From NCBI GenBank assembly GCA_964502615.1, contig CAZCXF010000002.1, forward strand, positions 24,236-88,235: DNA of 64,000 nucleotides, in the 5' to 3' direction. This document shows, one piece after another, positions 3,122 through 24,240 of this stretch. Positions within the stretch are counted from its first letter, which is position 1. Each line of letters begins with the position of its first letter. The notes under the pieces were generated by a model. It saw only the letters and a list, made by a program, of their open reading frames with translations, was not told the origin of the DNA and did not search any database. The translations under genes were made by a program, and so were the position numbers. Source of the DNA: an uncultured Candidatus Saccharibacteria bacterium (GTDB lineage Bacteria > Patescibacteriota > Minisyncoccia > Phycocordibacterales > UBA9973).

Positions 3122-3143
3122 CAAAGTTTGTTATAATAGTCTG

Positions 3144-4031
3144 ATGACTGTTGATACTGAATCTATAAAAAAAGAAATAGAAGCTCTTGAAAAAGATATA
3201 GCAAGCAACGATTTTTGGAATGACAAAGCAAAAGCTCAAGCCTCTATAAAACGTTTGAATGAACTAAAAGATGAACTTCTAGGTAGTGAAAAATATGATA
3301 AAGGCAATGCTGTTTTATCTATACTCTCTGGTGCGGGTGGGGATGATGCTGAAGATTTTTCTGCAATGCTTCTTCGTATGTATCTTAAATATATTGAAAG
3401 TCGTGGATGGCAGACCGTACTTATCCATGAAAATAAAAATGATGTCGGGGGATATAGGAATATTTCCATTGAAGTTATTGGAAAGGATGTATATGGAACA
3501 TTAAAAAATGAATCAGGAGTACATAGGTTGGTCAGAATATCACCATTCAATGCAAAATCTTTGCGTCACACTTCCTTCTCTTTGGTTGAAGTTATTCCTA
3601 GTTTGAAAATAAATGATAATGCGATTGTTATTCCGCCAGAAGATTTAAAAATTGAGTTTTCTAAATCTGGTGGCCCTGGAGGACAAAATGTAAACAAAAG
3701 AGAAACGGCGGTTCGAATTGTACATATACCCACAAATATATCTGTTCATGTAGCAACTGAGAGATCGCAAGAACAAAACAAAGAAAGAGCATTAGAAATG
3801 CTTAAAGGTAAACTTTTTAAGAGGAGGCAAGAAGATGAAGCTCGCACAAAAGCCGGATTGTCTATTTCAAAAACTACTGAAATTGAATGGGGTAACCAGA
3901 TTCGCAATTACGTTATTCACCCATATAAATTAATCAAAGATTTACGTACCGGGGTTGAAACTTCAAACGTGGATGCTGTTCTGGAAGGGGGAGACCTGAA
4001 TCAATTTATTGAAGCAGAGGCGCATTTATGA
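3144..4031 (+). CDS. prfB: Peptide chain release factor 2 (short form, no programmed +1 frameshift)
   Basis: The RF2-specific SPF tripeptide is present (RISPFNAKSLRHTSF), as is the GGQ motif (GGPGGQNVNK). The ORF starts 23 nt after tRNA-Thr, leaving no room for the upstream frameshift leader peptide. Confidence 0.85.
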   Translation: MTVDTESIKKEIEALEKDIASNDFWNDKAKAQASIKRLNELKDELLGSEKYDKGNAVLSILSGAGGDDAEDFSAMLLRMYLKYIESRGWQTVLIHENKNDVGGYRNISIEVIGKDVYGTLKNESGVHRLVRISPFNAKSLRHTSFSLVEVIPSLKINDNAIVIPPEDLKIEFSKSGGPGGQNVNKRETAVRIVHIPTNISVHVATERSQEQNKERALEMLKGKLFKRRQEDEARTKAGLSISKTTEIEWGNQIRNYVIHPYKLIKDLRTGVETSNVDAVLEGGDLNQFIEAEAHL

Positions 4032-11407: not shown

Positions 11408-11965
11408 TTAGAATGATCCAGGACCGTACCCAAAAGACTTAGGGTTACCATTCTCTAGATTTTCAGCATAGACTCTATATGTGCTAGCTGTTACAGTACC
11501 TGGTCCTAATTGGTCATTTATATAAGACAATGCCCCAGGAGCTTGATAAACATAATCAAAATATCCTCTATACTTGTAATTTCCACTTGGATCATAACAA
11601 TTAGCTCCACAAGGATCTTTCGGTACTGTTTTCATATAAGGATTTAGAGCTGTTGTAAGAGTTGACCATGGTTTACCGTTACCACCATCAAATTCATTTG
11701 TAAAACATGTATTATCATATGCATCTGGATTATCGCAGTTTCCTGACTCGCCTAAATCAGGAGCATGGTTATTCCCCGCTATATAAAGCTCAATAGCTGT
11801 TCTTATTTCTTGAATATTTCTTATTCGCTTTGCATCTCTACCTTTAGCTCGAGCAGAACTTAGTGATGCTATTATGATCGTAGATAATACAGCTATTATT
11901 ACAATAGCTATTAGTAACTCAATAAGAGTAAATCCTCCCTTTATATTCTTTTTAGTCTTCTTCAT
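11408..11965 (-). CDS. Type IV pilin / pseudopilin-like protein with prepilin-type N-terminal methylation domain
   Basis: N-terminus KGGFTLIELLIAIVIIAVL (prepilin peptidase site G|FTLIE). It is a paralogue of 12026..12592 with near-identical blocks (SSARAKGRDAKR, PWSTLTTALNPYMKTVPKDPCG). Confidence 0.8.
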   Translation of the reverse strand: MKKTKKNIKGGFTLIELLIAIVIIAVLSTIIIASLSSARAKGRDAKRIRNIQEIRTAIELYIAGNNHAPDLGESGNCDNPDAYDNTCFTNEFDGGNGKPWSTLTTALNPYMKTVPKDPCGANCYDPSGNYKYRGYFDYVYQAPGALSYINDQLGPGTVTASTYRVYAENLENGNPKSFGYGPGSF

Positions 11966-12025
11966 AGAGAGAATTATAACAATTATGGTCTATGTTTGCC
12001 AACTAAAATTTTAGGTTAGATTTAG

Positions 12026-12592
12026 TTAAAATGACCCAGGACCGTATCCAAAGAACTTAGGGTTACCCTTTTCAAGATTTGTTGCAAATATCCTGTAAGT
12101 ATTAACGGTTACGGTTCCTGGTCCTATTTGGTCGTTTAAATAAGATAATGTTCCAGGCGCATGATATACGTATTCGAAATATCCTCTGTCGTTATAGTTT
12201 CCAGATGGATCGTAACATCCTACTCCACAAGGATCTTTCGGTACTGTTTTCATATAAGGATTTAGAGCTGTTGTAAGTGTTGACCATGGTTTACCTGTAC
12301 CTCCTCCATCCCATTCATTTGCAAAACAAGAAGGATCATATGCTTCTGGGTTTCCACAATTTGATGGATCACCTAAATCTGGTGCATGACCATTTCCTGC
12401 TATATATAACTCAATTGCAGTTCTAATCTCTTCAATATTTCTAACTCTCTTAGCGTCTCTGCCTTTAGCACGTGCAGAACTAAGAGCCGACAGTATTATT
12501 GCTGATAGTATTGCTATTATTGCAATTGCTATTAATAATTCAATAAGAGTAAATCCACCAACAAGATTCTTCTTTCTTAGCTTCTTTTTCAT
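12026..12592 (-). CDS. Type IV pilin / pseudopilin-like protein (tandem paralogue)
   Basis: N-terminus VGGFTLIELLIAIAIIAIL. Roughly 75-80% identical to 11408..11965. Confidence 0.8.
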   Translation of the reverse strand: MKKKLRKKNLVGGFTLIELLIAIAIIAILSAIILSALSSARAKGRDAKRVRNIEEIRTAIELYIAGNGHAPDLGDPSNCGNPEAYDPSCFANEWDGGGTGKPWSTLTTALNPYMKTVPKDPCGVGCYDPSGNYNDRGYFEYVYHAPGTLSYLNDQIGPGTVTVNTYRIFATNLEKGNPKFFGYGPGSF

Positions 12593-12645
12593 ACAGATAA
12601 TTATACCAACTATGGTTTATATTACCAATCTGTTAAAATGTCTTT

Positions 12646-12978
12646 ATGTTAATGAAAATTTTCTTTATAGGTAGGGCAATAAGAGAAGCCAAAAATAACC
12701 CATCAGGATTTGCTAGTTCAAATACCAAAGAGGCTTTATGGGGAATATTTTTAATTCCCATAATTATACTTGCACTAGGACTTATTTTTTTGTTTATTCT
12801 TTCCTTTACACATTTACTTGGTGGCCCGTATCTTTTCTTTAAAATTATATTTTTTATTGGCTTATTTTTTTCTTCAATATTTTTTGTGATAGTGTATAAG
12901 CTCATAAGTAAGATAGGGAATACGACCAAAAAAGTTGTTTCTAAAACAATAGAAAATGTAAGTAATAAAATACAATAA
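12646..12978 (+). CDS. Small hydrophobic membrane protein (uncertain; overlaps an equally long antisense ORF)
   Basis: Three predicted TM helices. The competing minus-strand ORF 12633..12995 would run through the terminator at 12984-13010. Confidence 0.25.
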   Translation: MLMKIFFIGRAIREAKNNPSGFASSNTKEALWGIFLIPIIILALGLIFLFILSFTHLLGGPYLFFKIIFFIGLFFSSIFFVIVYKLISKIGNTTKKVVSKTIENVSNKIQ

Positions 12979-12983
12979 AAAAT

Positions 12984-13010
12984 AGCGTACCCCATCCGGC
13001 GGTACGCTAT
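12984..13010 (-). terminator. GC-rich rho-independent terminator for the 13042..13911 gene
   Basis: TAGCGTACC-ccatccggc-GGTACGCTA, followed on the minus strand by ATTTTTTATT. Confidence 0.7.
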
Positions 13011-13041
13011 AACTGTATATATAACAGTCTATGAAAAGCTC

Positions 13042-13911
13042 TTAATCTCCACGGTTTGCAAAGGTGTATCCGACTGAAATACCCAGGAAGATGTTTTCGG
13101 TGCGTCCATTACGCTTGCCGATTAATCCTGAAGGAGTATTGTCGGAGTACTTGCTGCTTATCCTCGGCACTACACACTTTGCTTGTACGAAGAAGTTTTT
13201 AAATTTTGCAGAGACCAGACCGTAAATTTCCAACCGGGTATCTGTGATTCGGGTGTTGTAGTAGTGTCGGCCAGATATTTGCGGCTCACTGGTGTTGTAT
13301 ATCAGAGCTTTAAACCCAGCACCAACCCCGATTACATCTCCGAAAAACTTCTTGAACTCCAGCTGGGGAATAAAAACATTTTCAGACCATGCGCTGTCAT
13401 TATCACGGGGCAGGAAAGTGTATGTCAGGCTCAGTTCTGCATCGATACCAGACTCATCTCCTTCCAGGTTTCCCATGATTCTTGCTCCCCATAATACATC
13501 GTTGTCATTCTTTTTTCTCAGGCTGTCGGGCAACGGTTTGGGTGTGATCATTGCTGTCGGTCCGCCGCCTAAGTTCAGGTAGTAATGGCCGTCACGGAAG
13601 TTTCCTCTGTCATAGGTGAAAGTCTTGTGCAAGCCACCACCAACGGTAATGCTTGTCATTTTACGCAGGCCAGGATAAGATCCCTTTTTCAAAGGTTGTT
13701 CCCGGGAAAATCCGCAGATGAACCCGCCGTAGTAATCACGGAAGTCGATTTCTGCAGTTTTTCCTACATTGGTGGAATCCTTTTTTTCAAGGTTTACACC
13801 AACAGAAATTTTGCCGTAATACGGCGGGATTTCTTTCTCCGCTTTTTGTTTTTTCTGTGCGAATGCGCTGATAGATACCAGCGCAAGAATCGCGATCATG
13901 ATTTTTTTCAT
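13042..13911 (-). CDS. Exported outer-membrane beta-barrel-like protein with a Bacteroidetes-type signal peptide; gene has anomalously high GC (~45-50%)
   Basis: Signal peptide MKKIMIAILALVSISAFAQ. Alternating amphipathic beta-strand pattern with Gly/Tyr-rich turns and a C-terminal ...GYTFANRGD. Local GC is much higher than the flanks. Confidence 0.6.
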   Translation of the reverse strand: MKKIMIAILALVSISAFAQKKQKAEKEIPPYYGKISVGVNLEKKDSTNVGKTAEIDFRDYYGGFICGFSREQPLKKGSYPGLRKMTSITVGGGLHKTFTYDRGNFRDGHYYLNLGGGPTAMITPKPLPDSLRKKNDNDVLWGARIMGNLEGDESGIDAELSLTYTFLPRDNDSAWSENVFIPQLEFKKFFGDVIGVGAGFKALIYNTSEPQISGRHYYNTRITDTRLEIYGLVSAKFKNFFVQAKCVVPRISSKYSDNTPSGLIGKRNGRTENIFLGISVGYTFANRGD

Positions 13912-14099
13912 AAACTGTTTTTAATTGATTGTTTTTAAATGTAAATATTTAATTGAGTGTATTTCGTTTTTCCAACGATTTCTCGCGGGGAAGACGAAAG
14001 ACACTCGACAAATCAATGTTTTTTAAGGTGCTTTGATTGACCTCTTATTAACATATTGGAACGAAAAAGTCAAGGGGTTAGGTATATGGTAATCCATAC

Positions 14100-14126
14100 A
14101 AAAAAGCCCTTTTGAGGGCTGTTTTT
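14100..14126 (-). terminator. Rho-independent terminator downstream of the 14134..15690 gene
   Basis: AAAAAAGCCCTTTTGAGGGCTGTTTTTG hairpin. Confidence 0.7.
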
Positions 14127-14133
14127 GTAGAAT

Positions 14134-15690
14134 TTATTTGTTCTTTGTTATGTCGTTACCTGGGTAAGTGACAGTGTTTGGAGTGTTTGAGTAGTCTTTA
14201 CCTATCTGTTGTATATTTTTATTTTCAACATTTGCAAAGTTTCCTACATTTATTTCAGCTAATCTCTTTAGTCTTGCTTCTCCGTTTGCTATGTCTAGCT
14301 CTGTTTCAGTTATACTTTTCTTTAATTTTGTTAGATAACTCCTGTTATTATTACCTGCTTGGAGTTCTATTTGTTGGTCTTTTAGAATTTTATTTAGAAC
14401 TTTTATTTGTCTTGCTTGATTATCAATTTCTTGTTGTTGGTTTATTTCTTGGAATTTCTGTTCATAAGCCAATTTTATTTGGTCTATTGTGAGCTTATAA
14501 ATATGACCGCTTATCATTATTGTGAATTTCAAATCAAAATTTTTTTTCTTTGATAAACTATCTAGTGTTTCTAATTTTTCTTTTGATACACCTTGAAGTT
14601 CTTCATCAGTTATTATGTATGCTACTCCTTTTTCAGGACTTATATCTGCTTTTTCTAATGCTTGTATCGTCGCATCTATGGCAAGCTCTCTATCTTCGTT
14701 TATAAATTTCATTTCTCTTATAGTATTCGCTGCATCTTCTAGGTTTTTTGATACAAATGCAGTATCAGCTTTATTCGTATAACCTATAACAGAAGTTTCT
14801 AGATCCTCCTTTGTGTTATCAAGAAGATTTTTAATTAATTCCTTCTTATGAGATTCCATAGAAGGGCTTTTATCGACAAGAAGCATTACCTTTTTATAAC
14901 CATCAAAGTCGAACGGTTTACCACCTGTTTCTATTTTAATTATTGGAGGCACTTCTTCTTTAGTATTTTTATCAAACAATACAACCAAATCTAAGTTTAC
15001 AAAGCGCATAGTTTTATAAACTTCATGTAGTTTGTCTTTATTTTTCTGTAATTCATCCCATTCGTTATCTGTAAATGGTTTATTGGTTTCTGGGTTTAAT
15101 ACTTTGTGGTAATCAATAACTCCATTTTCTGGAATATTAAATTTTAGATTACTAAAGGTTTTTATTACGTCACTTATTTGTTTTGGAGTTAGGTCTGTTT
15201 TAGAAAAGTCAAATTTTGATAATATTTCCTTTATTACTCGCTGGGTTTCTTCAGCACGAGCACGAGCAAGGCCTAAGTTTCCATTTTCGTAAGAATTTGT
15301 GTTTCTAGGATCACAACTTACATTAAGTTCAGGAGTAGAATTTATAAATTTATCTACATTTTTTGAGTTTAAGTTATTTATGTAAGTTGATACAAGTTTT
15401 GATATTTCACCACCATTTTCTGCAGAAATTTCAGCTTTATCAGTTTCAAAATAATTTGCAATTTTTATTTCCACCTTTTCACTACTCTTGTTTATTAAAG
15501 CTTCCATTTTTTTAATATCATTTGCTCTAAGTGAGTCTGTAGGGTCACCCTTTTCTTTTGCATTTGCTGCAAGACCCATAGTAACCAAAGCGGCACCTAA
15601 TATTGCTTTCTTAAGCCCAGTGTTACTAGCTGTCTCTTCTTTTTTGTCCTCCTTTTTATTTTTAGGAGGGAAGTTAAAATTTAATTTCAT
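14134..15690 (-). CDS. Secreted/anchored vWA-domain protein with C-terminal coiled coil
   Basis: N-terminal signal/TM (AILGAALVTMGLAANA). MIDAS-like D-x-S-x-S motif (VMLLVDKSPSM). Long charged heptad-like C-terminal region. Confidence 0.5.
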   Translation of the reverse strand: MKLNFNFPPKNKKEDKKEETASNTGLKKAILGAALVTMGLAANAKEKGDPTDSLRANDIKKMEALINKSSEKVEIKIANYFETDKAEISAENGGEISKLVSTYINNLNSKNVDKFINSTPELNVSCDPRNTNSYENGNLGLARARAEETQRVIKEILSKFDFSKTDLTPKQISDVIKTFSNLKFNIPENGVIDYHKVLNPETNKPFTDNEWDELQKNKDKLHEVYKTMRFVNLDLVVLFDKNTKEEVPPIIKIETGGKPFDFDGYKKVMLLVDKSPSMESHKKELIKNLLDNTKEDLETSVIGYTNKADTAFVSKNLEDAANTIREMKFINEDRELAIDATIQALEKADISPEKGVAYIITDEELQGVSKEKLETLDSLSKKKNFDLKFTIMISGHIYKLTIDQIKLAYEQKFQEINQQQEIDNQARQIKVLNKILKDQQIELQAGNNNRSYLTKLKKSITETELDIANGEARLKRLAEINVGNFANVENKNIQQIGKDYSNTPNTVTYPGNDITKNK

Positions 15691-15750
15691 ACTAGTATTC
15701 TAGCAAAAATACTCCCTTTTAGGAAACTATCAGTATGCTATACTCACTTT

Positions 15751-16377
15751 ATGAAAAAGGATGAAAAAAAACACCTGAAAAGGGAGAAAAATATACTTTA
15801 TACTGGTTTTGGAGATAAGGGGACTACAACCCTTTTTAATTGTAAACAAGAAAGAGTATCTAAAAGTGCAAATGTTATAGAAGCCCTTGGATCTGTAGAT
15901 GAACTAAATGCTTATATTGGGTTAGTAAAGGTTTATACTAGCGGTGGTGAATTTAAAATAAAAACTAAGTCAAAAACTATTTCTTATAGTGATACTCTTG
16001 ATCATATACAACAAGTTTTATTTATAATCCAGGCTGAACTCGCAGGTTCAGACATGACTGTTCCTCAAAATGAAGTGACTAAAATTGAAAACTTAATAAA
16101 TGATATAGGCGATCTACTTCCTCCAATAACTTCATTTACTATTTCAGGAGGAACAGTTGCAAGTGCAAGTCTTGATGTATCCAGAACTCTTGCTCGTCGT
16201 GCAGAACGTCGAATAGTCTCTGTGTTAGATGAAGGTATAAGGAAAGTCGGGCCAAATACAATATCTTACATGAATCGTTTGTCTAGTATATTATTTGCTC
16301 TTTCAAGATATGCGAACCATTTAGCGTCTGTAGAAGAAGAGCACCCAACTTATCTAAAAAATAAAAAAAGTAAATGA
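15751..16377 (+). CDS. PduO-type ATP:cob(I)alamin adenosyltransferase family protein
   Basis: ILYTGFGDKGTTTLFNC...RVSKSANVIEALGSVDELNAYIGL matches the PduO/MMAB N-terminal signature. Confidence 0.6.
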   Translation: MKKDEKKHLKREKNILYTGFGDKGTTTLFNCKQERVSKSANVIEALGSVDELNAYIGLVKVYTSGGEFKIKTKSKTISYSDTLDHIQQVLFIIQAELAGSDMTVPQNEVTKIENLINDIGDLLPPITSFTISGGTVASASLDVSRTLARRAERRIVSVLDEGIRKVGPNTISYMNRLSSILFALSRYANHLASVEEEHPTYLKNKKSK

Positions 16378-17288
16378 AAAATATAAACGGACCAGCACTG
16401 ATAATAATCGCGGCAGTATTGTGGGCCCTAGATGGGGTTATTCGCAGAAACTTATATAGTTTGCCACCCATTACTATAATTTTCTTTGAACATTTGGTTG
16501 GTTTAATCATACTCCTTCCATTTGTTTGGAAAGATTTATTTTTGGAGAAAATTACTAGAAAAGATTTTAGTCTTATTTTATTTATATCAATATTAAGTGG
16601 TTTACTAGGAACACTTTGGTTTACAACAGCATTACTTAAAGTACACTTTATTTCTTTTTCAGTAGTATTTTTATTACAAAAACTTCAACCTATATTTGCA
16701 ATAAGTACTGCTTCAATTTTTCTAAAGGAAAAATTAGATAAAAGATATATTAAGTGGGCGATACTTGCATTGATATCTGCATATTTTGTTACTTTTCCAG
16801 ATGGAAAAGTAAACTTACAGACTGGGGAGGGGACAGTAATTGCTGCCTTATATGCTTTAGGTGCTGCTTTTGCTTGGGGTTCGTCTACTACATTTTCTAA
16901 AATCATTCTAAATAAAATTACTTTTAAAGTAAGTACTTTCTATAGATTTTTATTTACGGCTGTCTCAGCCCTTATAGTTATTTTAGTTATGAATTATAGC
17001 CAGTCTTTATTTGCTCCTACAATAAACCAGTTTGGACTCTTTGCTTTAATTGCAATCTCTACCGGAATGGTCGCACTTCTGATATATTACAGAGGTCTTT
17101 CAAAGACACCTGTACATATATCGACAATACTCGAGTTAACTTTTCCATTTATAGCAATATTCATAGACATGACTCTTTATCATACAACCCTATCATTTTC
17201 TCAATGGATTGCAGTTTTTGTACTAGTATTCTCTATTTATAAAATAGCGAGCTTACAATCTAATGCTTTATCAAACCAAACAAATTAA
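16374..17288 (+). CDS. EamA/DMT-family transporter
   Basis: Ten predicted TM helices in two 5-TM repeats. Confidence 0.55.
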   Translation: MKNINGPALIIIAAVLWALDGVIRRNLYSLPPITIIFFEHLVGLIILLPFVWKDLFLEKITRKDFSLILFISILSGLLGTLWFTTALLKVHFISFSVVFLLQKLQPIFAISTASIFLKEKLDKRYIKWAILALISAYFVTFPDGKVNLQTGEGTVIAALYALGAAFAWGSSTTFSKIILNKITFKVSTFYRFLFTAVSALIVILVMNYSQSLFAPTINQFGLFALIAISTGMVALLIYYRGLSKTPVHISTILELTFPFIAIFIDMTLYHTTLSFSQWIAVFVLVFSIYKIASLQSNALSNQTN

Positions 17289-17634
17289 AGGAGTTGGAAG
17301 GGGAAGAAAGATTGGTTTCCCTACAATTAATCTCATCATTCCAGAAGAATTTCATTTCGATGATGGTGTTTACGCTACCTGGGTAGTGGTTGAAGATCAG
17401 ACTTTCAAAGGAGCTCTTCACTACGGTCCTATACCAACTTTTAATTTAAAAGATAAATCGCTCGAGGTTCACTTGATCGATGTTACTGATGGCAATATTC
17501 CGGTTACATATGGTAAAGATATAGAAATAGATATTGTAGAAAAGATTAGAGATGTTAAAAATTTTGAAAATGCTCTTGAACTTGCAACGCAAATAAGTGA
17601 TGATGTTCAGAAAATTAAATCAATTTTAAAATAA
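17263..17634 (+). CDS. Riboflavin kinase domain protein (RibF C-terminal type)
   Basis: GVGRGRKIGFPTINL motif (GRG...PTAN flavokinase signature). Confidence 0.7.
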   Translation: MLYQTKQIKGVGRGRKIGFPTINLIIPEEFHFDDGVYATWVVVEDQTFKGALHYGPIPTFNLKDKSLEVHLIDVTDGNIPVTYGKDIEIDIVEKIRDVKNFENALELATQISDDVQKIKSILK

Positions 17635-17672
17635 CTAGCAGATTGGAGATAAATAAGTTAGTATAGAAACCT

Positions 17673-19145
17673 ATGGCTCATGGCGAAGTAGTAATAAGAT
17701 TTGAAAAAGTTTCATTTGAATATGGTCATAATAAACCGATACTAGATACGGTTGATTTTTCTATTAGAAGAGGAATGAAAGTTACTATCATGGGCCAAAA
17801 CGGTGCAGGGAAGAGTACGCTATTTTCTCTTATCACAGGAGCATTGCAACCCGAGAATGGAAACATACATCTAGCTCAAAGAACTACTATAGCTCTTTCT
17901 CGGCAAGTAATTCCTAGAGATGAACTTGATCTTACCGTACGTGCTTTTTTTGAAAAGTGTTTTAAACATAAAGTTTATGATATTGATCCAAAAATTGATG
18001 ATGTACTTGAGGTTGTTAACTTAAAGGGGCACGAAAAAGTTCACGATCGAGTAGTAAGGTCTTTTTCTGGAGGTCAACAAGCACGATTGCTTCTTGCAAG
18101 TGCTTTAATTCAAGAGCCAGATGTTTTACTTTTAGATGAACCGACAAACAATCTAGACAAAGCGGGAATTGCTCACCTCACAGATTTTCTTATCAAATAC
18201 AAAAAGACAGTTATTGTTATCTCACACGATGCACACTTTTTGAATGCGTTTACGGATGCAGTGCTCTATTTAGATGTTTATACTAGAAAGATTGAGCAAT
18301 ATGTTGGAAACTATACTGATGTTCGAGATCAAATAACTGTTCGTATGGAACGCGAGAATAGAAAAAATGCTCTTCTTTCAAAAGAGATTCAGGCAAAGAA
18401 AGATCAAGCCAATGCATTTGCTATGAAAGGAGGGAATCTTCGTGCTGTTGCCAAGCGCATGCGCGATTTAGCAGAAGAACTTGAAGAAGAAAAAGTAGAC
18501 GTAAGAAAAGAAGATAAAACAATCAGACCATTTAAAATACCTTTCCAAGGTGATTTGATAGGGGATATTTTAACACTTTCATCTGTTTCTATTCTTAAGA
18601 AAGGCAAGCCCTCAAAAAGAAAAGTAAGTCTATCTCTTCGTAAAAATAAACACTTATTGCTTTCAGGTCCAAATGGTATTGGAAAGAGTACTCTGCTCGA
18701 ATCGCTTGCAAATGGTGTTGCAGAGGGTTCAGTTATAGCAAAAGGAGTAAGAGTTGGATATTATCGTCAGGATTTTTCAACCTTAAATTTTGACCACACT
18801 GTTTTAGAATCACTTTCTGAAATTAGTCGTAATGTTACAGGGCGTGTTGATGAAGAGCATATTAGAGCTGTCGCAGCATCTTTTCTAATAACAGGAGATA
18901 TGGGTCATACTCGTATTGGTAGTCTATCCGAAGGACAAAAAGGTTTAGTTGCATTTGCGAGCTTAGTTTTATTGAAGCCTGGGTTATTAATTCTTGATGA
19001 ACCAACTAACCACATAAACTTTCGTCACTTACCAATTATTGCAAAAGCACTAGACGAGTATGAAGGTGCAATGATACTTGTTTCTCACGTACCAGAATTT
19101 GTCAGTCAAATTCGGATTGACGATATTTTAGATCTAGAAAAATAG
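17673..19145 (+). CDS. ABC-F family ATPase (two tandem ABC cassettes, no TM domain)
   Basis: Two Walker A motifs (GQNGAGKST, GPNGIGKST), two signature motifs (FSGGQQAR, LSEGQKG), and an inter-domain charged linker. Confidence 0.8.
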   Translation: MAHGEVVIRFEKVSFEYGHNKPILDTVDFSIRRGMKVTIMGQNGAGKSTLFSLITGALQPENGNIHLAQRTTIALSRQVIPRDELDLTVRAFFEKCFKHKVYDIDPKIDDVLEVVNLKGHEKVHDRVVRSFSGGQQARLLLASALIQEPDVLLLDEPTNNLDKAGIAHLTDFLIKYKKTVIVISHDAHFLNAFTDAVLYLDVYTRKIEQYVGNYTDVRDQITVRMERENRKNALLSKEIQAKKDQANAFAMKGGNLRAVAKRMRDLAEELEEEKVDVRKEDKTIRPFKIPFQGDLIGDILTLSSVSILKKGKPSKRKVSLSLRKNKHLLLSGPNGIGKSTLLESLANGVAEGSVIAKGVRVGYYRQDFSTLNFDHTVLESLSEISRNVTGRVDEEHIRAVAASFLITGDMGHTRIGSLSEGQKGLVAFASLVLLKPGLLILDEPTNHINFRHLPIIAKALDEYEGAMILVSHVPEFVSQIRIDDILDLEK

Positions 19146-19148
19146 AAA

Positions 19149-19700
19149 TTAATTAATTAATTTTACGTAAATATCATCAGTGTCAACTGCATTACATGCT
19201 CCTCCTAAGGTTGCGTTGTCAGTTGGATAATCTTGAACAGTATTCCTACCATAAGACACAACAACAGGGTAGCTTGCATCAATTGAGTTTTCGCAGATAT
19301 GATAGTCAGGGTCGAACACATAAGAAGTTCCCCATTGGTCTGTTGCAGATTCAGCATATGGTCCCTTCCATCTTGATATATCACCAGCGTTCCAACTGCA
19401 TGTTCCTGATGAGAAAATACTAGGTGCAGATATTATTCCAGAATTAGGGCTGGTTAGATTAACTTCAGGATTAGATGTCTGGTCTATAGGACAACCGTTT
19501 GGCCATTTTGAGGTATCATTTTCAAGCATTGTGATTGCGTTCCTTAAACTTTTTATTTCAAGAAGAGCTTTTACATTCTCAGCTTTTAGTTTAGCGTTAT
19601 TTAAAGAAATCATAATAACACTAGTAAGTATACCTATAATTGCAATAACAACTAGGAGTTCTAAAACAGTAAATCCACTATTTTTAGTTTTTGATATCAC
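19149..19700 (-). CDS. Type IV pilin-like protein (prepilin N-terminal domain)
   Basis: N-terminus NSGFTVLELLVVIAIIGILTSV. Confidence 0.75.
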   Translation of the reverse strand: MISKTKNSGFTVLELLVVIAIIGILTSVIMISLNNAKLKAENVKALLEIKSLRNAITMLENDTSKWPNGCPIDQTSNPEVNLTSPNSGIISAPSIFSSGTCSWNAGDISRWKGPYAESATDQWGTSYVFDPDYHICENSIDASYPVVVSYGRNTVQDYPTDNATLGGACNAVDTDDIYVKLIN

Positions 19701-19732
19701 CTATATATTTTAACTAAGTTTTTATAATAAAT

Positions 19733-21379
19733 CTACCTATTGCACTCTGGGTCAACTTTTACTTCGACAAATTTAAATAATTCGTTACAAAGGTTTTTTA
19801 TTGTCTTTCTATTTCTATATACATGCCCTTCTCCCTTGTAAGAAATAAGTTTTACATCTTTATTGTTTGATTTTAATTTATTGTATAGATCTGTTGCTTG
19901 CCAATAGGGAATTGTTCTATCTGCTACTCCTGCAATGATTTCTATTTTTTGGTTTCCAATATTATTTATTTTATTATATATAGAAGCTTGATCGTAAAGT
20001 GCGCGATTGTTTACATCTGGAAGCCCATTGAATTCAGTATTAAATATTGAATTTTGCATTTTAACAACGAGACTTTCCCAGTCAGTAACTCCATTTATAG
20101 AAACTACTCCATCAAATACATCTGGACGTTCGACTAAAGACTTCAAAGATAAATAGCCACCGTAGCTATTTCCCATTAAATAAACCTTACTAACTTTATA
20201 TTTATTTTTTATATAATCAATTGAGTTTAATACATCCAAAACATCACCCTTTCCAACGGACTCTTTAATAGATTCAGAATAAATCCTTCCAAAACCGATA
20301 CTGCCTCTATAATCCAATTTTAGTACTAGAAAATTATTCTTTGGGAAGAGTTTCAATATTGAATCATAAACTCCGTAACTATGGTATGGATGGTAGTTTA
20401 TACTTGTCTGTCTAACAGGTCCGCCGTGGAGCCATATAATTAGAGGATAAGATTTATCTTTTCTAATTTGTTTCGGTGGCATTAGTACACCACTCATGTT
20501 TCCTATAGTAACGACTTCCTCATTGCTGGTAGATTTTTTGGTGTTTATGTTAGGTATCCTAAAATTAGAAACCCTTTTACTTTTTGGATTATATATTTTA
20601 GGTCCATATCCAATATTCTGTAATCCATTAAAAACAATTACTGAACCAACTTTTCTCAATCTATCTACATAAGATACATCGTTTTCTATTACTTTATCTT
20701 CTCCTGTTTTTAGATTGAGTTGGTAGAGCGACCACTGATAAGGATTGTTTTTACTGTTGCCAATATAATATATGGTCTGTGAATCATAAAAAATGAAATC
20801 ATTTATAGTAAAAGCTGATGTAGAAATTTTTGAGCTGTTAATTTTGCTATTTACTAAGTTATTAGTTTCTACTTTATATAAAGACATATATCCGTCATTA
20901 TCATCCAAGTAAACTAATAGTTTATTGTCAGGAGAGAATTCATAAATTTTATTTAAATCCACTACCAAATCCCAATATGATCTAGTTTCATCAAGTCTAT
21001 AGTCTTTATTTTGTTTTATATCTTTTATTACAAAACTGCTAATATTATTACCTTTTTCTGGTGAAAGATAATAAGCTAGAAAATCTTCTGCTGGTGAGAG
21101 TGTTAAGTGCTCGGCTTTTTTCTCTAATAACTCTTTTTTTAGATCACTTTTTATAATTGAAATTTTCTCTCCACCCAAAGTGAATTTTTTAGTTTTTTCA
21201 CAAGCTAGTGTTGTGACACTACATATAAAATTAGTTTTATTCCCAATACCAGAGTATTGTATTAATACGTTATTTTTATTAGTAGAAATTGTAGTACCAT
21301 ATTCCACACTTAAAGCTTCGGCTCTTAATGAGCAGAATAGATATAAAAGTATTATCAGAGTGTACTTGGGTCTCAACAT
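19733..21379 (-). CDS. S9 family serine peptidase (prolyl oligopeptidase / dipeptidyl peptidase-like), secreted
   Basis: Signal peptide, N-terminal beta-propeller-like region, and a C-terminal alpha/beta hydrolase with GNSYGGY (GxSxGG) and downstream D/H. Confidence 0.75.
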   Translation of the reverse strand: MLRPKYTLIILLYLFCSLRAEALSVEYGTTISTNKNNVLIQYSGIGNKTNFICSVTTLACEKTKKFTLGGEKISIIKSDLKKELLEKKAEHLTLSPAEDFLAYYLSPEKGNNISSFVIKDIKQNKDYRLDETRSYWDLVVDLNKIYEFSPDNKLLVYLDDNDGYMSLYKVETNNLVNSKINSSKISTSAFTINDFIFYDSQTIYYIGNSKNNPYQWSLYQLNLKTGEDKVIENDVSYVDRLRKVGSVIVFNGLQNIGYGPKIYNPKSKRVSNFRIPNINTKKSTSNEEVVTIGNMSGVLMPPKQIRKDKSYPLIIWLHGGPVRQTSINYHPYHSYGVYDSILKLFPKNNFLVLKLDYRGSIGFGRIYSESIKESVGKGDVLDVLNSIDYIKNKYKVSKVYLMGNSYGGYLSLKSLVERPDVFDGVVSINGVTDWESLVVKMQNSIFNTEFNGLPDVNNRALYDQASIYNKINNIGNQKIEIIAGVADRTIPYWQATDLYNKLKSNNKDVKLISYKGEGHVYRNRKTIKNLCNELFKFVEVKVDPECNR

Positions 21380-21401
21380 ATCTATATAGTATAGTAGAAG
21401 G

Positions 21402-22028
21402 GTGGATACGCAAAATAAGCACCAAAAAGAACTTGTTATAGTTCAAATACTATACCTTTATATAATACCGACACTCCTACTGTTTTATCGTGTTATTCCT
21501 GGAGAATTTAGAGTCACAATGCTCTTTCTAATTTCGTTACTTATGTATGGTATCATCAAGCGTTCTGGCTGGACTTATTCTGATATGGGTTTGAAGAAAG
21601 GTTTTTTAAAAGATTTCTTACCCTACCTTATTTTTACTGTTATTGGGGTAATAACTTTAGTTGTTATATCAGAAGTAGTACCACAGATAGAAAACAGACA
21701 GGTATACGAATGGTGGGAAGACGTAAGATTTTTAGTATTGTTTGTTCCGATTAGCGTATTGCAAGAAATAGTTTTTAGAGGAATATTGATGCATATGTTA
21801 AGGAAAGCATTTAATAATGTACCCTTCGTTATTTTCTTAAATGCATCTCTGTTTGCTCTTATACATATTATATACATCAATACTGATATTGTTTTACCAC
21901 TTACGTTTATTGGAGGAATAGGATTCGCTGTCATGTATTATAAATATCCGAATCTTGTTATGATTTCTATTTCTCATACAATACTTAATTTTACAGCTAT
22001 GATACTTGGATTCTTTGTTGTTAGATAA
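21402..22028 (+). CDS. CPBP family intramembrane metalloprotease (CAAX protease-like)
   Basis: EExxxR (QEIVFRG), FxxxH (FALIH) and HxxxN (HTILN) motifs in TM helices. Confidence 0.75.
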   Translation: MDTQNKHQKELVIVQILYLYIIPTLLLFYRVIPGEFRVTMLFLISLLMYGIIKRSGWTYSDMGLKKGFLKDFLPYLIFTVIGVITLVVISEVVPQIENRQVYEWWEDVRFLVLFVPISVLQEIVFRGILMHMLRKAFNNVPFVIFLNASLFALIHIIYINTDIVLPLTFIGGIGFAVMYYKYPNLVMISISHTILNFTAMILGFFVVR

Positions 22029-22086
22029 ATATTGACAATTAGTTTTATTTTTTTAATATTTATTATATAAGCTAATATAAATATAT

Positions 22087-23388
22087 ATGCAAAACTCAAA
22101 TTTAAATAAAGAAAAAATCAATAAAATGCTCAAAGACCCAGTCGTTCGAACGGTTATTGTAAGTTTTCTAACAATCGTTGTAACACTTGGATTAATAGCT
22201 TTAGCTGCTTGGTACTATAGAGATCAGATTTTTAAAGTTTTAGCTAAAAATTATTCGGCACAGCTTTCTCCTAAAGCGGATAATTTAGTATTTAATCCAC
22301 AATCTAAAGAAGAATCAAAAGTAGAAACAGTTGTTAATCCCGAAGATACAGTTGTTAGTTCAGTTAAAAAAGCAAAGCCAGCCGTAGTTTCTATTATTGT
22401 AAGTAAAGATGTTCCTAAATATGATGTCACATACGATCAGAGTAGTGATCCGTTTGGTGGGCTTTTCCCAGGATTTTTCCAGACACCAATCTACAAACAA
22501 AACGGAACTGAAAGAAAACAAATCGGTAGCGGTTCAGGATTCCTTATTTCTTCAGATGGAATGATCGTAACAAATAAGCACGTGGTGGCTGATACGGATG
22601 CGATATATGAAGTTCAATTAAATAATGGTAAAAAATACACTGCAAGAGTTCTTGCACGTGACGGAGTTCTTGATGTTGCTCTAGTTAAAATAAGTGCAAA
22701 TGATTTACCATATCTTAATCTTGCTGACTCAGATACTTTAGATGTAGGGGAAACGGTTATTGCAATAGGAAATGCTCTTGGAGAATTCAAAAATACGGTT
22801 TCAGTTGGAGTTGTTTCAGGACTTTCTCGTTCAGTTGTAGCTGGGAATGGTATGGGTATGTCTGAGAGACTTGATAAAGTTATTCAGACAGATGCTGCAA
22901 TTAATCCGGGAAATTCTGGAGGGCCACTTCTAAATATTCACGGAGAAGTTATAGGTATAAATGTCGCTGTTGTTCAAGGTTCTTCAAATGTTGGATTTGC
23001 GCTACCAATAAATAGCGTAAAAGGTGCTATTAACTCTGTAAAAACAACTGGAAAAATTGTAAGACCTTATGTTGGAGTAAGATATATTCCTGTAACCGCT
23101 GATTTGAAAGCAAAAAATAAACTTACTGTTGATTACGGAGTTTTGGTGCAAAGAGGAGTAAATCAATCTGACATAGCAGTCATTCCTGGGTCACCAGCTG
23201 ACAAAGCTGGGATTGTTGAGAATGATATTATTCTTGAAATAGGGGGAGTAAAAATTGATGAAGATCAGAGTTTCTCTAATCTAATTAGAGATAAAAAAGT
23301 AGGGGATTATGTAACATTTAAAGTTTTATCTAAAGGTATAGAAAAAATGGTAACCCTTCGTCTAGAAGCTGCACCAGATAACTTGTAA
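22087..23388 (+). CDS. HtrA/DegP-family serine protease with C-terminal PDZ domain
   Basis: N-terminal TM anchor. Catalytic His, Asp and Ser (GNSGGPL). PDZ-like C-terminus. Confidence 0.85.
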   Translation: MQNSNLNKEKINKMLKDPVVRTVIVSFLTIVVTLGLIALAAWYYRDQIFKVLAKNYSAQLSPKADNLVFNPQSKEESKVETVVNPEDTVVSSVKKAKPAVVSIIVSKDVPKYDVTYDQSSDPFGGLFPGFFQTPIYKQNGTERKQIGSGSGFLISSDGMIVTNKHVVADTDAIYEVQLNNGKKYTARVLARDGVLDVALVKISANDLPYLNLADSDTLDVGETVIAIGNALGEFKNTVSVGVVSGLSRSVVAGNGMGMSERLDKVIQTDAAINPGNSGGPLLNIHGEVIGINVAVVQGSSNVGFALPINSVKGAINSVKTTGKIVRPYVGVRYIPVTADLKAKNKLTVDYGVLVQRGVNQSDIAVIPGSPADKAGIVENDIILEIGGVKIDEDQSFSNLIRDKKVGDYVTFKVLSKGIEKMVTLRLEAAPDNL

Positions 23389-23426
23389 TAGTTGTCTTTA
23401 ACATTCTTTGGGAGTATATTTAACCT

Positions 23427-23909
23427 ATGAAGAAATCAGCAAAAAAAGCTACTCCTCGTAAAGCAACATCCTGGGATGAGACATTTATGCGCATGGCCCA
23501 TGTTATATCTGATAGATCTAAAGATCCTTCTACTCAAGTAGGTTCAGTAATTGTAGACAAAGACAATGTAGTGGTCGGTTTAGGATATAATGGTTTTCCT
23601 AGAGGAATCAAAAACACCGATTTACCTTGGGATAAAGATGGAAGTCTAGAAAACACAAAATACGCTTACATTTGTCACGCAGAAGAGAATGCAATTTATA
23701 ATGCAAACAATTCTACCAAAAATTGTGTTTTATACTCTACATTATTTCCTTGCAACGAATGCGCTAAGACTATAATACAAAACGGGATAAAAGAAGTTGT
23801 TTATGAAGATGATAAATATAAAAATACTCCCGGACATGTGGCTTCCATAAGAATGTTTAAATTAGCCAAAGTTAGTTTTAGAAAATATAAAAGTAATATG
23901 AAAAAATAA
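23427..23909 (+). CDS. Deoxycytidylate (dCMP) deaminase
   Basis: Zinc-binding HAEENAI ... PCNECAK motifs of the CMP/dCMP deaminase family. Confidence 0.8.
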   Translation: MKKSAKKATPRKATSWDETFMRMAHVISDRSKDPSTQVGSVIVDKDNVVVGLGYNGFPRGIKNTDLPWDKDGSLENTKYAYICHAEENAIYNANNSTKNCVLYSTLFPCNECAKTIIQNGIKEVVYEDDKYKNTPGHVASIRMFKLAKVSFRKYKSNMKK

Positions 23910-23910
23910 T

Positions 23911-24240
23911 ATGGTAGATTTAAAAGAATTACAAAAGGAAGTAATGCGAAACAAATTAGAAAAAGGTTTTAACACTACTGATGTTGCGCTTGAATTTTGT
24001 CGTGCACACGAAGAATTATCTGAAGCCTTTTCAAAATACAATAAGAACCAAGACGGTGTAGCTGAAGAATTCGCTGATGTCGCTGTTTTTTTACTTGGTA
24101 TGTGTGAAATACTAGGATATGACCTTGAAAAAGAACTTGTACGCAAAATCGAAATAAATAAAAATAGAAAATATAAAAAAATAAAATCTCCAGATGGAAA
24201 AGATATTTTTATTAGAGAAAAATCCGATCTAGATCCATAA
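23911..24240 (+). CDS. MazG-like nucleotide pyrophosphohydrolase (small all-alpha NTP-PPase)
   Basis: EFCRAHEELSEAF ... EEFADVAVFLLGMCEILGYDLE matches the MazG-type EExxE/D motifs. Confidence 0.7.
   Translation: MVDLKELQKEVMRNKLEKGFNTTDVALEFCRAHEELSEAFSKYNKNQDGVAEEFADVAVFLLGMCEILGYDLEKELVRKIEINKNRKYKKIKSPDGKDIFIREKSDLDP

What the first reader, a model, noticed from the sequence alone, without database searches (positions are those of the whole stretch)
12980..14130. Single-gene high-GC islet encoding a Bacteroidetes-style outer-membrane beta-barrel-like protein
The gene 13042..13911 (-) and its terminator have roughly 45-50% GC against ~30-33% for the flanking genes. The protein has a textbook Bacteroidetes/Flavobacteria signal peptide (MKKIMIAILALVSISAFAQ). 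Alternating amphipathic strands with Gly/aromatic turns end in an aromatic-rich C-terminus, as in OmpA-like beta-barrels. An outer-membrane barrel is unexpected in the genomic context, which otherwise suggests a Gram-positive-like or CPR-type envelope (RNase J, type IV pilins). It looks like a recent horizontal acquisition, possibly from a Bacteroidetes host or neighbour. The alternative is an assembly chimera.
Basis: partly seen in the sequence, partly recalled or inferred. Interest (0 to 1): 0.6.

Follow-up and report, generated by a model that had tools for sequence, protein, structure and literature searches.

The report
Barrel-protein gene with odd GC content
A GC-rich single gene in an AT-rich Paceibacterota (CPR) genome encodes a predicted 12-stranded outer-membrane-type beta-barrel, in a phylum described as lacking an outer membrane; it is an old, strain-variable resident of this lineage, not a recent Bacteroidetes import or an assembly error.

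Summary
The gene at 13042..13911(-) has GC 45.6% and GC3 0.50, against GC3 0.23±0.05 for the window's ORFs, and it has the second most deviant tetranucleotide signature.

It is not a chimera: identical junctions occur in at least 12 assemblies. It is not a recent Bacteroidetes transfer either. An exhaustive phmmer search of 1.84 billion representatives found about 10 real clusters. Every member placed on a contig lies in low-GC Paceibacterota DNA, mostly at the same syntenic slot.

The gene is under purifying selection (dN/dS 0.06). It behaves as a hypervariable allele cassette: 39-45% aa identity between strains whose housekeeping proteins are about 90% identical. A conserved promoter and structured leader lie on one side, and a conserved gene on the other.

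GC3 stays at 0.39-0.55 in all alleles, whatever the host genome's GC. Nine of ten alleles fold far better as mRNA than synonymous-shuffled versions do. I therefore favour selection on mRNA folding over recent foreign origin, at moderate confidence.

Where the barrel sits is unknown.

The parts
13042..13911 (-). CDS of a 289-aa exported protein ('FAM'). It has a signal peptide (aa 1-19, AFA|Q) and a predicted 12-stranded antiparallel beta-barrel. It is GC3-rich and is the hypervariable allele cassette.
12974..13008 (-). Intrinsic terminator of FAM: stem AGCGTACC/GGTACGCT, then a T-run on the minus strand. It lies between FAM and the convergent orf110 gene, so it probably serves both directions.
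   Evidence: Sequence. A hairpin sits at the same place in L010, L016 and L021, with different stem sequences.
13912..14038 (-). Conserved 5' leader of about 130 nt (start site predicted, not mapped). It contains a long stem-loop at 13955..14006, and the AUG region is left unpaired.
   Evidence: 83-88% nt identity to L016 and L021, although the CDS that follows is only 39-45% aa identical. Fold -28.7 kcal/mol, z -3.96 against 200 shuffles. No Rfam match. Most other genes in the window are leaderless.
14045..14073 (-). Predicted sigma-70-type promoter: -35 TTGACT (14073..14068), a 17-nt spacer, then an extended -10 TGT-TAATAA (14050..14045).
   Evidence: The motif TTGACTTTT-N8-11-ATGTTAATAAG occurs upstream of FAM in the window-like loci and in L010, L016, L020 and L021, and nowhere else in the 113 fetched loci. 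Related versions are present in L023, L030 and L017-19. It does not follow the Bacteroidetes TTTG/TAnnTTTG pattern (own knowledge of that consensus).
14105..14120 (-). Terminator hairpin of the upstream gene. It marks the upper edge of the unit.
14134..15690 (-). Upstream neighbour: a 518-aa secreted or anchored protein with a weak VWA-like hit. It is one of at least three unrelated 'partner' types found at this slot.
   Evidence: 80% aa identity to L021. Unrelated to the L010/L016/L023 type and to the L020 type, but all share an N-terminal xFNF..KK signal and a C-terminal ..NK/KK. VWA_2 E=0.006, below the gathering cut-off. Normal GC3 of 0.20.
12646..12978 (+). orf110, a conserved small membrane protein convergent with FAM. 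It forms the conserved lower flank of the cassette.
   Evidence: Homologues in L010, L016, L021, L029, L030 and L054. dN/dS 0.05-0.23. 85-88% nt identity to L016 and L021 resumes immediately after the FAM stop codon.

Best explanation
The islet is a real, expressed, selected gene of a small protein family restricted, as far as current databases show, to Candidatus Paceibacterota/Nomurabacteria.

The protein:
- It is exported by Sec (cleavable AFA|Q signal; inferred from sequence).
- It is predicted to fold into a monomeric 12-stranded transmembrane beta-barrel of the PcoB/KdgM/NanC size class (shown as a prediction). That would make it a small channel or anchor in a lipid layer outside the cytoplasmic membrane.

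The locus:
- The gene sits in a fixed slot next to flavokinase-EamA-(Cob adenosyltransferase).
- It has its own strong sigma-70-type promoter, a conserved structured leader of about 130 nt, and a strong terminator.
- The coding region is exchanged between strains as a highly divergent allele cassette, by recombination in the conserved leader and the downstream gene (shown by mosaic identity patterns).
- This pattern is typical of exposed envelope proteins under diversifying or balancing selection (inference).

The GC excess:
- High GC3 and odd codon usage are an old, family-wide property that does not depend on host genome GC.
- The most likely cause is selection for an unusually stable, highly base-paired mRNA (inferred).
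- AT-rich hosts reach this stability through GC-rich synonymous codons. Other alleles reach it mainly through codon arrangement.

Location: where the barrel resides is not shown. My best guess is the interface with a diderm host or an outer layer of the epibiont's own envelope.
For: Real and selected:
- dN/dS is 0.064 between the window and L010.
- Identical sequence was found in at least 12 assemblies.

Fold:
- AF2 pLDDT 79.7, pTM 0.76, with 12 strands. Even-numbered connections are 2-4 residues and odd-numbered ones are 5-12 residues.
- All Foldseek PDB hits are outer-membrane porins or barrels.
- Alternating hydrophobic/polar faces: family mean Kyte-Doolittle +0.83 against -0.93.

Lineage-restricted and syntenic:
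- Exhaustive phmmer found 12 hits in 1.84e9 representatives. At least one is spurious (a repeat protein) and another is a 23-residue match in a 4382-aa protein.
- The contexts in L010, L016, L020, L021 and L023 share flavokinase-EamA-[partner]-FAM. L017-19 have a second conserved context.
- Source names are Patescibacteria or Paceibacterota.

Cassette:
- FAM is 92/45/39% aa identical to L010/L016/L021, while ABC-F, HtrA and CobAT are 88-95% identical.
- Against L016 and L021, nt identity is 0.83-0.88 in the leader, about 0.5 in the CDS and 0.85-0.88 right after the stop codon.
- Partner type and FAM allele assort independently.

Persistent GC3:
- GC3 is 0.39-0.55 in 10 alleles, against genome GC3 of 0.21-0.38.
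- The CTG/TAC/ACC excess recurs across alleles.

mRNA folding:
- In 9 of 10 alleles the native CDS folds better than synonymous-codon shuffles (z -2.3 to -7.2).
- The effect survives block-restricted shuffles.
- It is stronger on the sense strand than the antisense strand in 7 of 7 cases.
- The dinucleotide null of the fold tool gives z -2.78 (window) and -7.85 (L017).
- 36 window control genes have mean z -0.35, sd 0.97.
- Other GC3-rich genes show no such excess.
- FAM alleles fold at -0.26 to -0.33 kcal/mol/nt, against -0.14 to -0.25 for window genes.
- dS of FAM (0.78) is lower than that of flanking genes (1.3-2.1).
Against: - The fold is a prediction from a 15-sequence alignment, and I could not inspect coordinates. 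Several loops have pLDDT of 50-70.
- For the window allele itself the folding excess is modest: z about -2.4 to -3.2. One control gene reaches -2.7, and EamA reaches -2.0 under the dinucleotide null.
- The alleles with the highest GC3 have the weakest arrangement effect. The link between GC3 and folding is therefore a correlation across alleles, not a demonstration.
- The strongly skewed codon choice (CTG 57% of Leu against 3% in the genome; CCG 46% against 8%) looks like a foreign signature. An old transfer from an unsampled donor is not excluded.
- Patescibacteria are reported to lack an outer membrane and its assembly machinery. A native home for such a barrel is therefore unexplained.
- Variation is spread over strands and loops alike, not concentrated in the loops as in classical surface-exposed OMPs.
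Confidence: 0.55

Rival explanations
1. One reading: a recent horizontal acquisition from a Bacteroidetes host or neighbour, not yet ameliorated.
For: GC3 is 0.50 against 0.23 for the genome, and codon usage is atypical. The tetranucleotide signature is an outlier. The signal peptide is of the MKK...AFAQ type. GC3 outliers are rare in this lineage: 7 of 1115 ORFs in 80 related loci.
Against: No Bacteroidetes homologue appeared in an exhaustive phmmer search of 1.84e9 representatives. There is no hit to any OMP Pfam or NCBIfam model. All homologues with readable contigs lie in Paceibacterota contexts, mostly at the syntenic slot. dS to the sister-lineage allele is 0.78 with unchanged GC3. The promoter is a conserved sigma-70 type specific to this family. 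There are no flanking direct repeats, tRNA genes or mobility genes.
Confidence: 0.04
2. Assembly chimera: a fragment from another organism was mis-joined into a CPR contig.
For: There are sharp compositional boundaries at both ends of the gene.
Against: The same junctions occur at 100% identity in independent assemblies from several projects and assemblers. Orthologues sit at the same slot in diverged relatives. The leader and downstream gene flanking the CDS are conserved across lineages.
Confidence: 0.01
3. Ancient transfer from an unknown diderm donor, followed by repeated import of alleles from an unsampled GC-richer reservoir. In this model the GC excess reflects foreign ancestry and incomplete amelioration, not selection on the mRNA.
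For: The OMP-type fold is otherwise a diderm trait. The codon signature is idiosyncratic, with CTG, CCG and ACC up and CCA down. Cassette exchange between lineages is directly visible. FAM dS to L010 is lower than flank dS, as expected if this allele was shared after the genomes split. The family is patchy among relatives: it is absent next to EamA in L025, L027 and L031.
Against: No member of the supposed reservoir is found in very large databases, nor in phage, IMG/VR or plasmid collections. Allele GC3 (up to 0.55) exceeds the genomic GC3 of every carrier seen. This model does not explain the sense-strand-biased excess of mRNA structure at synonymous sites. By my rough calculation (inference), a neutral allele at dS 0.78 under this genome's AT bias would need an ancestral GC3 of about 0.65.
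Confidence: 0.25
4. [not shown]
For: The host phylum is described as monoderm. The hydrophobic faces are only moderately hydrophobic (mean Kyte-Doolittle +0.83) and include charged residues. The alignment is shallow at 15 sequences, and coordinates were not inspected. The C-terminal aromatic residue is followed by 0-6 extra residues.
Confidence: 0.12
5. GC-biased gene conversion at a recombination hot spot raises GC3.
For: The locus is clearly recombinogenic.
Against: The neighbouring partner gene, which is shuffled just as often, has GC3 of 0.18-0.23. The GC excess stops exactly at the CDS ends. Alleles differ by about 50% at nt level, so heteroduplex formation inside the CDS is implausible (inference).
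Confidence: 0.03

Closest known systems
PcoB/CopB copper outer-membrane channel (PDB 7pge)
   Different: Only 7% sequence identity. There is no match to any Pfam model, which would include CopB, and no profile hit to any PDB sequence. No copper-resistance genes are nearby. The host lineage is reported to be monoderm.
KdgM/NanC family of 12-stranded specific porins (PDB 4pr7, 8xua, 2wjr)
   Different: No KdgM Pfam hit and 7-10% identity. KdgM-family genes sit in sugar-acid utilisation loci of Proteobacteria. This gene sits in a hypervariable envelope locus of a CPR bacterium.
Autotransporter and intimin 12-stranded translocator domains (BrkA, Hbp, EspP, intimin)
   Different: The upstream gene has its own terminator and FAM has its own promoter. 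Partner type and barrel allele assort independently. The second clade (L017-19) has no such partner. No linker helix is predicted.
Bacteroidetes OMP_b-brl_2 / PorT-like barrels
   Same: Signal peptide of the MKK...A-x-A-Q type. A small beta-barrel with an aromatic residue near the C-terminus.
   Different: No hit at E<=10 for any of the 15 family members. No Bacteroidetes homologue was found.
Antigenically variable porin or OMP loci of diderm bacteria, such as Neisseria porB (own knowledge)
   Same: Highly divergent alleles sit between conserved flanks in otherwise closely related strains.
   Different: Divergence here is spread over the whole protein rather than focused on the loops. The organism is not known to have an outer membrane.

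Membership tests
Outer-membrane-type transmembrane beta-barrel (structural class) | N-terminal Sec signal peptide with a signal peptidase I site | tested here: met
   MKKIMIAILALVSISAFA|Q. The AF2 model has a helix at residues 2-20. M1 and Q19 are invariant or nearly so across the family. This was judged by inspection only; no dedicated predictor was run.
Outer-membrane-type transmembrane beta-barrel (structural class) | Even number of antiparallel strands closing a barrel, with short turns on one side and longer loops on the other | tested here: met
   [not shown]
Outer-membrane-type transmembrane beta-barrel (structural class) | Lipid-facing hydrophobic face alternating with a polar lumen face | tested here: inconclusive
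   A dyad pattern is present in all 12 strands: family mean Kyte-Doolittle +0.83 against -0.93. The hydrophobicity is moderate.
Outer-membrane-type transmembrane beta-barrel (structural class) | C-terminal beta-signal ending in an aromatic residue | tested here: inconclusive
   The last strand reads ...ISVGYTF, followed by ANRGD. Family members have [FWL] followed by 0-6 polar residues, and one ends exactly at F.
Outer-membrane-type transmembrane beta-barrel (structural class) | Host has an outer membrane and BAM/Omp85 assembly machinery | not testable with these tools
   Only a 64-kb window and 20-kb loci were held. The literature describes Patescibacteria as monoderm, without an outer membrane (PMC11665869, PMC12102498).
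KdgM/NanC porin family (Pfam KdgM) | Match to the family profile | tested here: not met
   hmmscan of the window protein and of all 15 family members against Pfam at E<=10 gave no OMP family.
PcoB/CopB family | Match to the family profile or to PcoB sequences | tested here: not met
   No Pfam hit. A family profile searched against all PDB sequences gave 0 hits at E<=10. The similarity is in fold only.
Bacteroidetes OMP_b-brl / OMP_b-brl_2 / PorT-like | Match to the family profile, or homologues in Bacteroidota | tested here: not met
   All homologues that could be placed are in Paceibacterota contigs.
Recently acquired genomic islet (horizontal transfer) | Atypical composition relative to the host genome | tested here: met
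   GC3 z is above 5 in the AT-rich carriers. Tetranucleotide rank is 2 of 218.
Recently acquired genomic islet (horizontal transfer) | Absent from the same slot in close relatives; closest homologues in the donor lineage | tested here: not met
   Present at the syntenic slot in L010, L016, L021, L020 and L023. No donor-lineage homologues were found.
Recently acquired genomic islet (horizontal transfer) | Mobility signatures: flanking direct repeats, tRNA target, integrase or transposase | tested here: not met
   Only chance-level repeats. The nearest tRNA genes are at about 8.2 kb and beyond. Neighbouring genes are pilins and membrane or secreted proteins.

The most novel reading that the evidence does not exclude
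A clade of Paceibacterota, a phylum held to be monoderm, makes a genuine, abundant OMP-type 12-stranded channel.

Either of two things would then be true:
- These ultrasmall cells possess an unrecognised outer lipid layer.
- The barrel is delivered into the outer membrane of a diderm host, as a nutrient conduit at the epibiont-host contact. The allele cassettes would then track host or phage specificity.

In addition, the GC islet would not be a transfer scar. It would be the footprint of selection for a hyper-structured mRNA, a way for an AT-rich, largely leaderless-translating genome to stabilise or pace particular envelope-protein messages.
Probability: 0.25. Interest if true: 0.85.

Novelty: new variant of a known kind. 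Interest (0 to 1): 0.62.

Why it matters
- If the prediction holds, this is a lineage-specific outer-membrane-type barrel in a phylum thought to have no outer membrane. That bears directly on two open questions: what the CPR/Patescibacteria envelope looks like, and how these epibionts tap their hosts.
- The protein is small, single-gene and easy to test, by expression, bilayer conductance or localisation.
- The locus shows a clean example of allele-cassette exchange in uncultured ultrasmall bacteria.
- The GC islet is a warning for genome scans. A sharp, persistent GC3 and codon-usage anomaly can be an old property tied to mRNA folding rather than evidence of recent horizontal transfer.
- The excess of sense-strand structure at synonymous sites, up to z about -7 to -9 in relatives and in an adjacent lipoprotein gene, is an unexplained phenomenon worth following.

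Tried and rejected
- The search for related loci with family alignments A1 and A3 failed, because no stretch was conserved enough. I used the neighbouring ABC-F gene instead.
- Two metagenome-contig scans with the conserved leader sequence found nothing, or only six chance matches in unrelated GC-rich contigs. That collection appears not to hold this lineage.
- The afdb50 fold library was unavailable.
- A third word-seeded profile search that added the most divergent member returned nothing new.
- No relatives were found in IMG/VR, GenBank phages or PLSDB plasmids. A phage or plasmid reservoir is therefore unsupported.
- P0010 and P0012 from the phmmer list are not family members. P0010 is a tandem-95 repeat protein, and P0012 matches over only 23 residues of a 4382-aa protein.
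- I tried to polarise synonymous changes using a third close allele (P0027). It is the window sequence itself, 100% identical at nt level, so the test could not be done.
- The idea that the folding excess comes from dense tight hairpins holds only for L023 FAM and the L018 lipoprotein, not for the window allele.
- The idea that GC3-rich genes in this lineage are generally exported proteins was rejected. Of 7 GC3 outliers among 1115 ORFs, 1 had a signal-like N-terminus.
- The idea that any GC-rich gene gives a negative folding z was rejected.
- A hairpin in the signal-peptide coding region shows some compensatory changes, but its consensus energy is negligible, so no claim is made.
- Rfam found nothing in the leader.
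- Partner and orf110 proteins gave no significant Pfam hits.
Full report

Yes. ORF 13042..13911(-) is intact and encodes 289 aa.

- GC in 300-nt windows is 0.46-0.49 inside the gene and 0.27-0.31 on either side.
- The 1-kb bin that contains it (0.437) is the highest of the whole 64-kb window.
- The excess is synonymous. GC1/GC2/GC3 are 0.47/0.40/0.50. The 60 ORFs of at least 100 aa have mean GC3 0.231, sd 0.050, and the next highest is 0.337.
- The tetranucleotide profile correlates at 0.52 with the window average, against 0.85±0.08 for other windows. That is rank 2 of 218, and the only more deviant stretch is a repetitive PKD/Gly-rich surface-protein gene.
- Codon choice is strongly skewed. 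CTG is 57% of Leu codons (genome 3%), ATC is 59% of Ile (11%), TAC is 80% of Tyr (29%), CCG is 46% of Pro (8%), and CCA is 0% (50%).

- The adjacent ABC-F protein is 84-90% identical to MAGs titled Candidatus Paceibacterota or Nomurabacteria.
- Type IV pilins, a CarS-like gene, RNase J and a PG-binding surface protein are present.

**2. Not a chimera.**

- Exactly the same protein with the same neighbours was found on contigs from six JGI metagenomes and three SRA runs. It was also found in three further SRA runs from other accession series.
- These loci are 100% identical to the window over 5-16 kb, spanning both islet boundaries.
- Orthologues occupy the same slot in diverged relatives.

**3. 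What the protein is.**

- No Pfam or NCBIfam model matches the window protein. No OMP model matches any of the 15 family members, even at E<=10.
- A family profile finds no PDB sequence.
- AlphaFold2 on a 15-sequence alignment gives mean pLDDT 79.7 and pTM 0.76. The model has an N-terminal helix (the signal peptide) followed by 12 long antiparallel strands.
- Connections alternate strictly. There are tight turns of 2-4 residues, then loops of 5-12 residues. Every strand shows an alternating hydrophobic/polar pattern across the family.
- Foldseek returns only outer-membrane porins or barrels.

The expected Bacteroidetes family membership is not.

Patescibacteria are described as monoderm and as lacking an outer membrane (PMC11665869 and PMC12102498). 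This is what makes the protein odd.

**4. Where its relatives are.**

- An exhaustive phmmer search of 1.84 billion cluster representatives found 12 proteins at E<=0.001.
- One is a tandem-repeat protein from a gammaproteobacterial MAG. Another matches over 23 residues of a 4382-aa protein. Neither is a member.
- Every real member whose contig I could read lies in low-GC DNA with Paceibacterota-type gene content. Where sources give names, they are Patescibacteria or Paceibacterota.
- Five lineages share the arrangement flavokinase-EamA-(Cob adenosyltransferase)-[variable secreted protein]-FAM: L010, L016, L021, L020 and L023. L030 has the EamA-partner-FAM-orf110 core in a rearranged neighbourhood.
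- A second clade (L017-19) has ferric reductase-cytochrome b5-FAM-lipoprotein.
- Among 80 GTDB species representatives fetched through the ABC-F neighbour, only two carry a FAM gene within 10 kb. Close relatives L025, L027 and L031 have EamA, and two of them have the partner gene, but none has FAM. The family is therefore narrow and patchy.
- Nothing was found in IMG/VR, GenBank phages or PLSDB plasmids.

**5. How the locus evolves.**

- Between the window and L010 the gene has dN 0.050, dS 0.78 and dN/dS 0.064. This is a protein under purifying selection.
- The window, L010, L016 and L021 are close relatives: ABC-F, HtrA and CobAT are 88-95% identical. Yet FAM is 92%, 45% and 39% identical respectively.
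- Sliding identity shows why. Against L016 and L021 the leader is 83-88% identical, the CDS drops to about 50%, and identity returns to 85-88% immediately after the stop codon, in the convergent gene orf110. Against L010 the CDS is 80-93% identical, and the break lies inside orf110.
- The upstream 'partner' gene comes in at least three unrelated types. These assort independently of the FAM allele: the window type matches L021, and the L010 type matches L016 and L023.

This is a cassette locus shuffled by recombination in conserved flanks. There are no flanking repeats, tRNA genes or mobility genes.

**6. Expression signals.**

- Most genes in the window are leaderless. A TGnTATAAT box lies 6-8 nt before the ATG, and SD-like motifs occur in only 4 of 57 genes.
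- FAM is different. It has a conserved TTGACT -35 and a TGT-TAATAA extended -10 (14073..14045). This motif was found only upstream of FAM genes among all 113 loci.
- After the promoter comes a conserved leader of about 130 nt. Its long stem-loop (13955..14006) folds at z -3.96, and the start codon is left unpaired.
- Rfam has no match for the leader.
- A hairpin terminator follows the gene. Its position is kept in relatives, with different stem sequences.
- These are resident-type signals, not Bacteroidetes-type (the comparison with the Bacteroidetes consensus rests on my own knowledge).

**7. Why is it GC-rich?**

- The anomaly is not specific to this genome. In ten alleles GC3 is 0.39-0.55, while the host genomes' GC3 ranges from 0.21 to 0.38. 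FAM is an extreme outlier in the AT-rich carriers (z 5-8) and unremarkable in the GC-richer ones.
- The CTG/TAC/ACC preference recurs across alleles.
- The window and L010 alleles differ at 48% of synonymous sites, and flanking genes are near saturation (pS 0.62-0.71). A neutral foreign gene should have decayed well towards GC3 0.23. Instead both alleles sit at 0.49-0.50.

I therefore tested for constraint at synonymous sites.

- Native CDSs fold better than versions with synonymous codons shuffled within the gene in 9 of 10 alleles. The z values are -2.9, -2.3, -2.5, -4.7, -2.3, -6.8, -0.9, -7.2, -4.9 and -6.8.
- The effect survives shuffling restricted to 40-codon blocks.
- It is larger on the sense strand than on the antisense strand in 7 of 7 cases, which points to RNA rather than DNA.
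- The fold tool's own dinucleotide null gives z -2.78 for the window allele and -7.85 for L017.
- Controls: 36 window genes have mean z -0.35, sd 0.97. Fourteen genes from L017 and L023 range from -2.3 to +1.8. Other GC3-rich genes (GC3 0.45-0.52) give z from -0.8 to +0.6.
- All FAM alleles converge on -0.26 to -0.33 kcal/mol/nt, against -0.14 to -0.25 for window genes.
- Alleles with the highest GC3 have the smallest arrangement effect, and the reverse also holds.
- The lipoprotein gene downstream of FAM in L017 and L018 shares both the raised GC3 (0.40-0.43) and an extreme folding excess (z -6.1 and -9.5).

My reading is an inference. The message is selected to be unusually stable or structured, and in AT-rich hosts this is achieved largely with GC-rich codons. 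That would also explain the sharp CDS-limited boundaries and the lowered dS.

Caveats:
- For the window allele alone the excess is modest. One control gene reaches z -2.7, and EamA reaches -2.0 under the dinucleotide null.
- Tight hairpins are significantly enriched only in two relatives.
- An unrelated cytoplasmic-looking gene in L027 is also GC3-raised and hyper-structured (z -9.7). The phenomenon is therefore not unique to barrels.
- An old transfer from an unsampled donor remains possible and is not exclusive of this reading.

**8. How it most likely works.**

Shown:
- The gene is real, intact and under purifying selection.
- The family is lineage-restricted.
- The CDS behaves as a cassette between conserved flanks.
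- GC3 is persistently high, and the mRNA has excess structure.

Predicted:
- A Sec-exported 12-stranded transmembrane barrel of the small-channel class.

Inferred:
- It is an abundant exposed envelope component under diversifying or balancing selection.
- It sits either in an outer layer of the epibiont or in the outer membrane of a diderm host.

I cannot distinguish the last two options with the tools available.

**9. Comparison and novelty.**

- In fold, the protein resembles PcoB and the KdgM/NanC porins. By sequence it is not a member of those families, or of any Pfam OMP family.
- It is a new, small family of a known structural kind in an unexpected phylum. It has two unusual attached features: allele cassettes, and a GC-rich, hyper-structured message.
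- I rate it a new variant of a known kind.
The barrel reading is supported. The chimera reading is rejected. The recent-Bacteroidetes-transfer reading is not supported.

Noticed in passing
window, genome-wide (e.g. 3130-3146, 11966-11985, 12593-12612, 15691-15750): Most genes appear leaderless. A TGnTATAAT extended -10 box lies 6-8 nt upstream of the ATG, and a Shine-Dalgarno-like motif is present in only 4 of 57 genes.
   Followed up: partly
window 53450-54607 (+): A 385-aa lipoprotein-like gene (MKKNFFSLVATFVAVTIFSLTSC...) with no Pfam hit. It has the second-highest GC3 in the window (0.337). It is also the only control gene with a clear excess of mRNA structure (z -2.7).
   Followed up: partly
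L017 7753-8295 (+), L018 4990-5589 (+): The lipoprotein gene directly downstream of the barrel gene in the second clade (lipobox LAGC in L018, ITASC in L017) shares the raised GC3 (0.40-0.43). It has an extreme folding excess (z -6.1 and -9.5). The L018 copy has 9 tight hairpins in 600 nt.
   Followed up: partly
L027 3899-5332 (-): In a relative that lacks the barrel gene, a 477-aa hydrophilic protein of unknown function lies about 1 kb beyond the partner gene. It is also GC3-raised (0.34-0.39 against a genome median of 0.18) and hyper-structured (z -9.7). It has its own ordinary promoter.
   Followed up: partly
window 34245-37823 (+): A 1192-aa class I aminoacyl-tRNA synthetase (tRNA-synt_1 plus Anticodon_1) carries a histidine-phosphatase (His_Phos_1) domain inserted at aa 539-703.
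   Followed up: no
window 47623-51924 (+) and 60709-62058 (+): The first is a 1433-aa protein with a C-terminal Peptidase_S74 (endosialidase chaperone) domain, which is tail-fibre-like. The second is a PKD-repeat protein with a PG_binding_1 domain, GC3 of only 0.11, and the most deviant tetranucleotide profile in the window.
   Followed up: no
window 11408-11965 (-) and 12026-12592 (-): Tandem type IV pilin paralogues, about 78% nt identical. Several independent assemblies break at 12248 inside this pair. The L010 lineage lacks the whole pilin / 441-aa / CarS-like / VTT block.
   Followed up: partly
window 14134-15690 (-) and counterparts in L010, L016, L020, L021, L023, L025, L027, L030: The gene next to EamA encodes secreted proteins of at least three unrelated types. 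All share an N-terminal xFNF..KK signal region and a C-terminal ..NK/KK. The window type has a weak VWA_2 hit. In L004 the N-terminal end and the upstream neighbourhood differ from the window, starting at 15602.
   Followed up: partly
window 12646-12978 (+): orf110 might look like a spurious antisense ORF, but it is a conserved small membrane protein. It has homologues in seven loci, dN/dS 0.05-0.23 and a weak holin-like hit at E 0.035.
   Followed up: partly
window 12248-23911 versus L001-L009 and L111-L113: This strain's sequence is 100% identical over 5-16 kb in metagenomes from several accession series (JGI 33000453xx, SRR237024xx, SRR31615969, SRR12404947, SRR12487046). This suggests one clonal population sampled repeatedly, or a widely distributed strain.
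   Followed up: no
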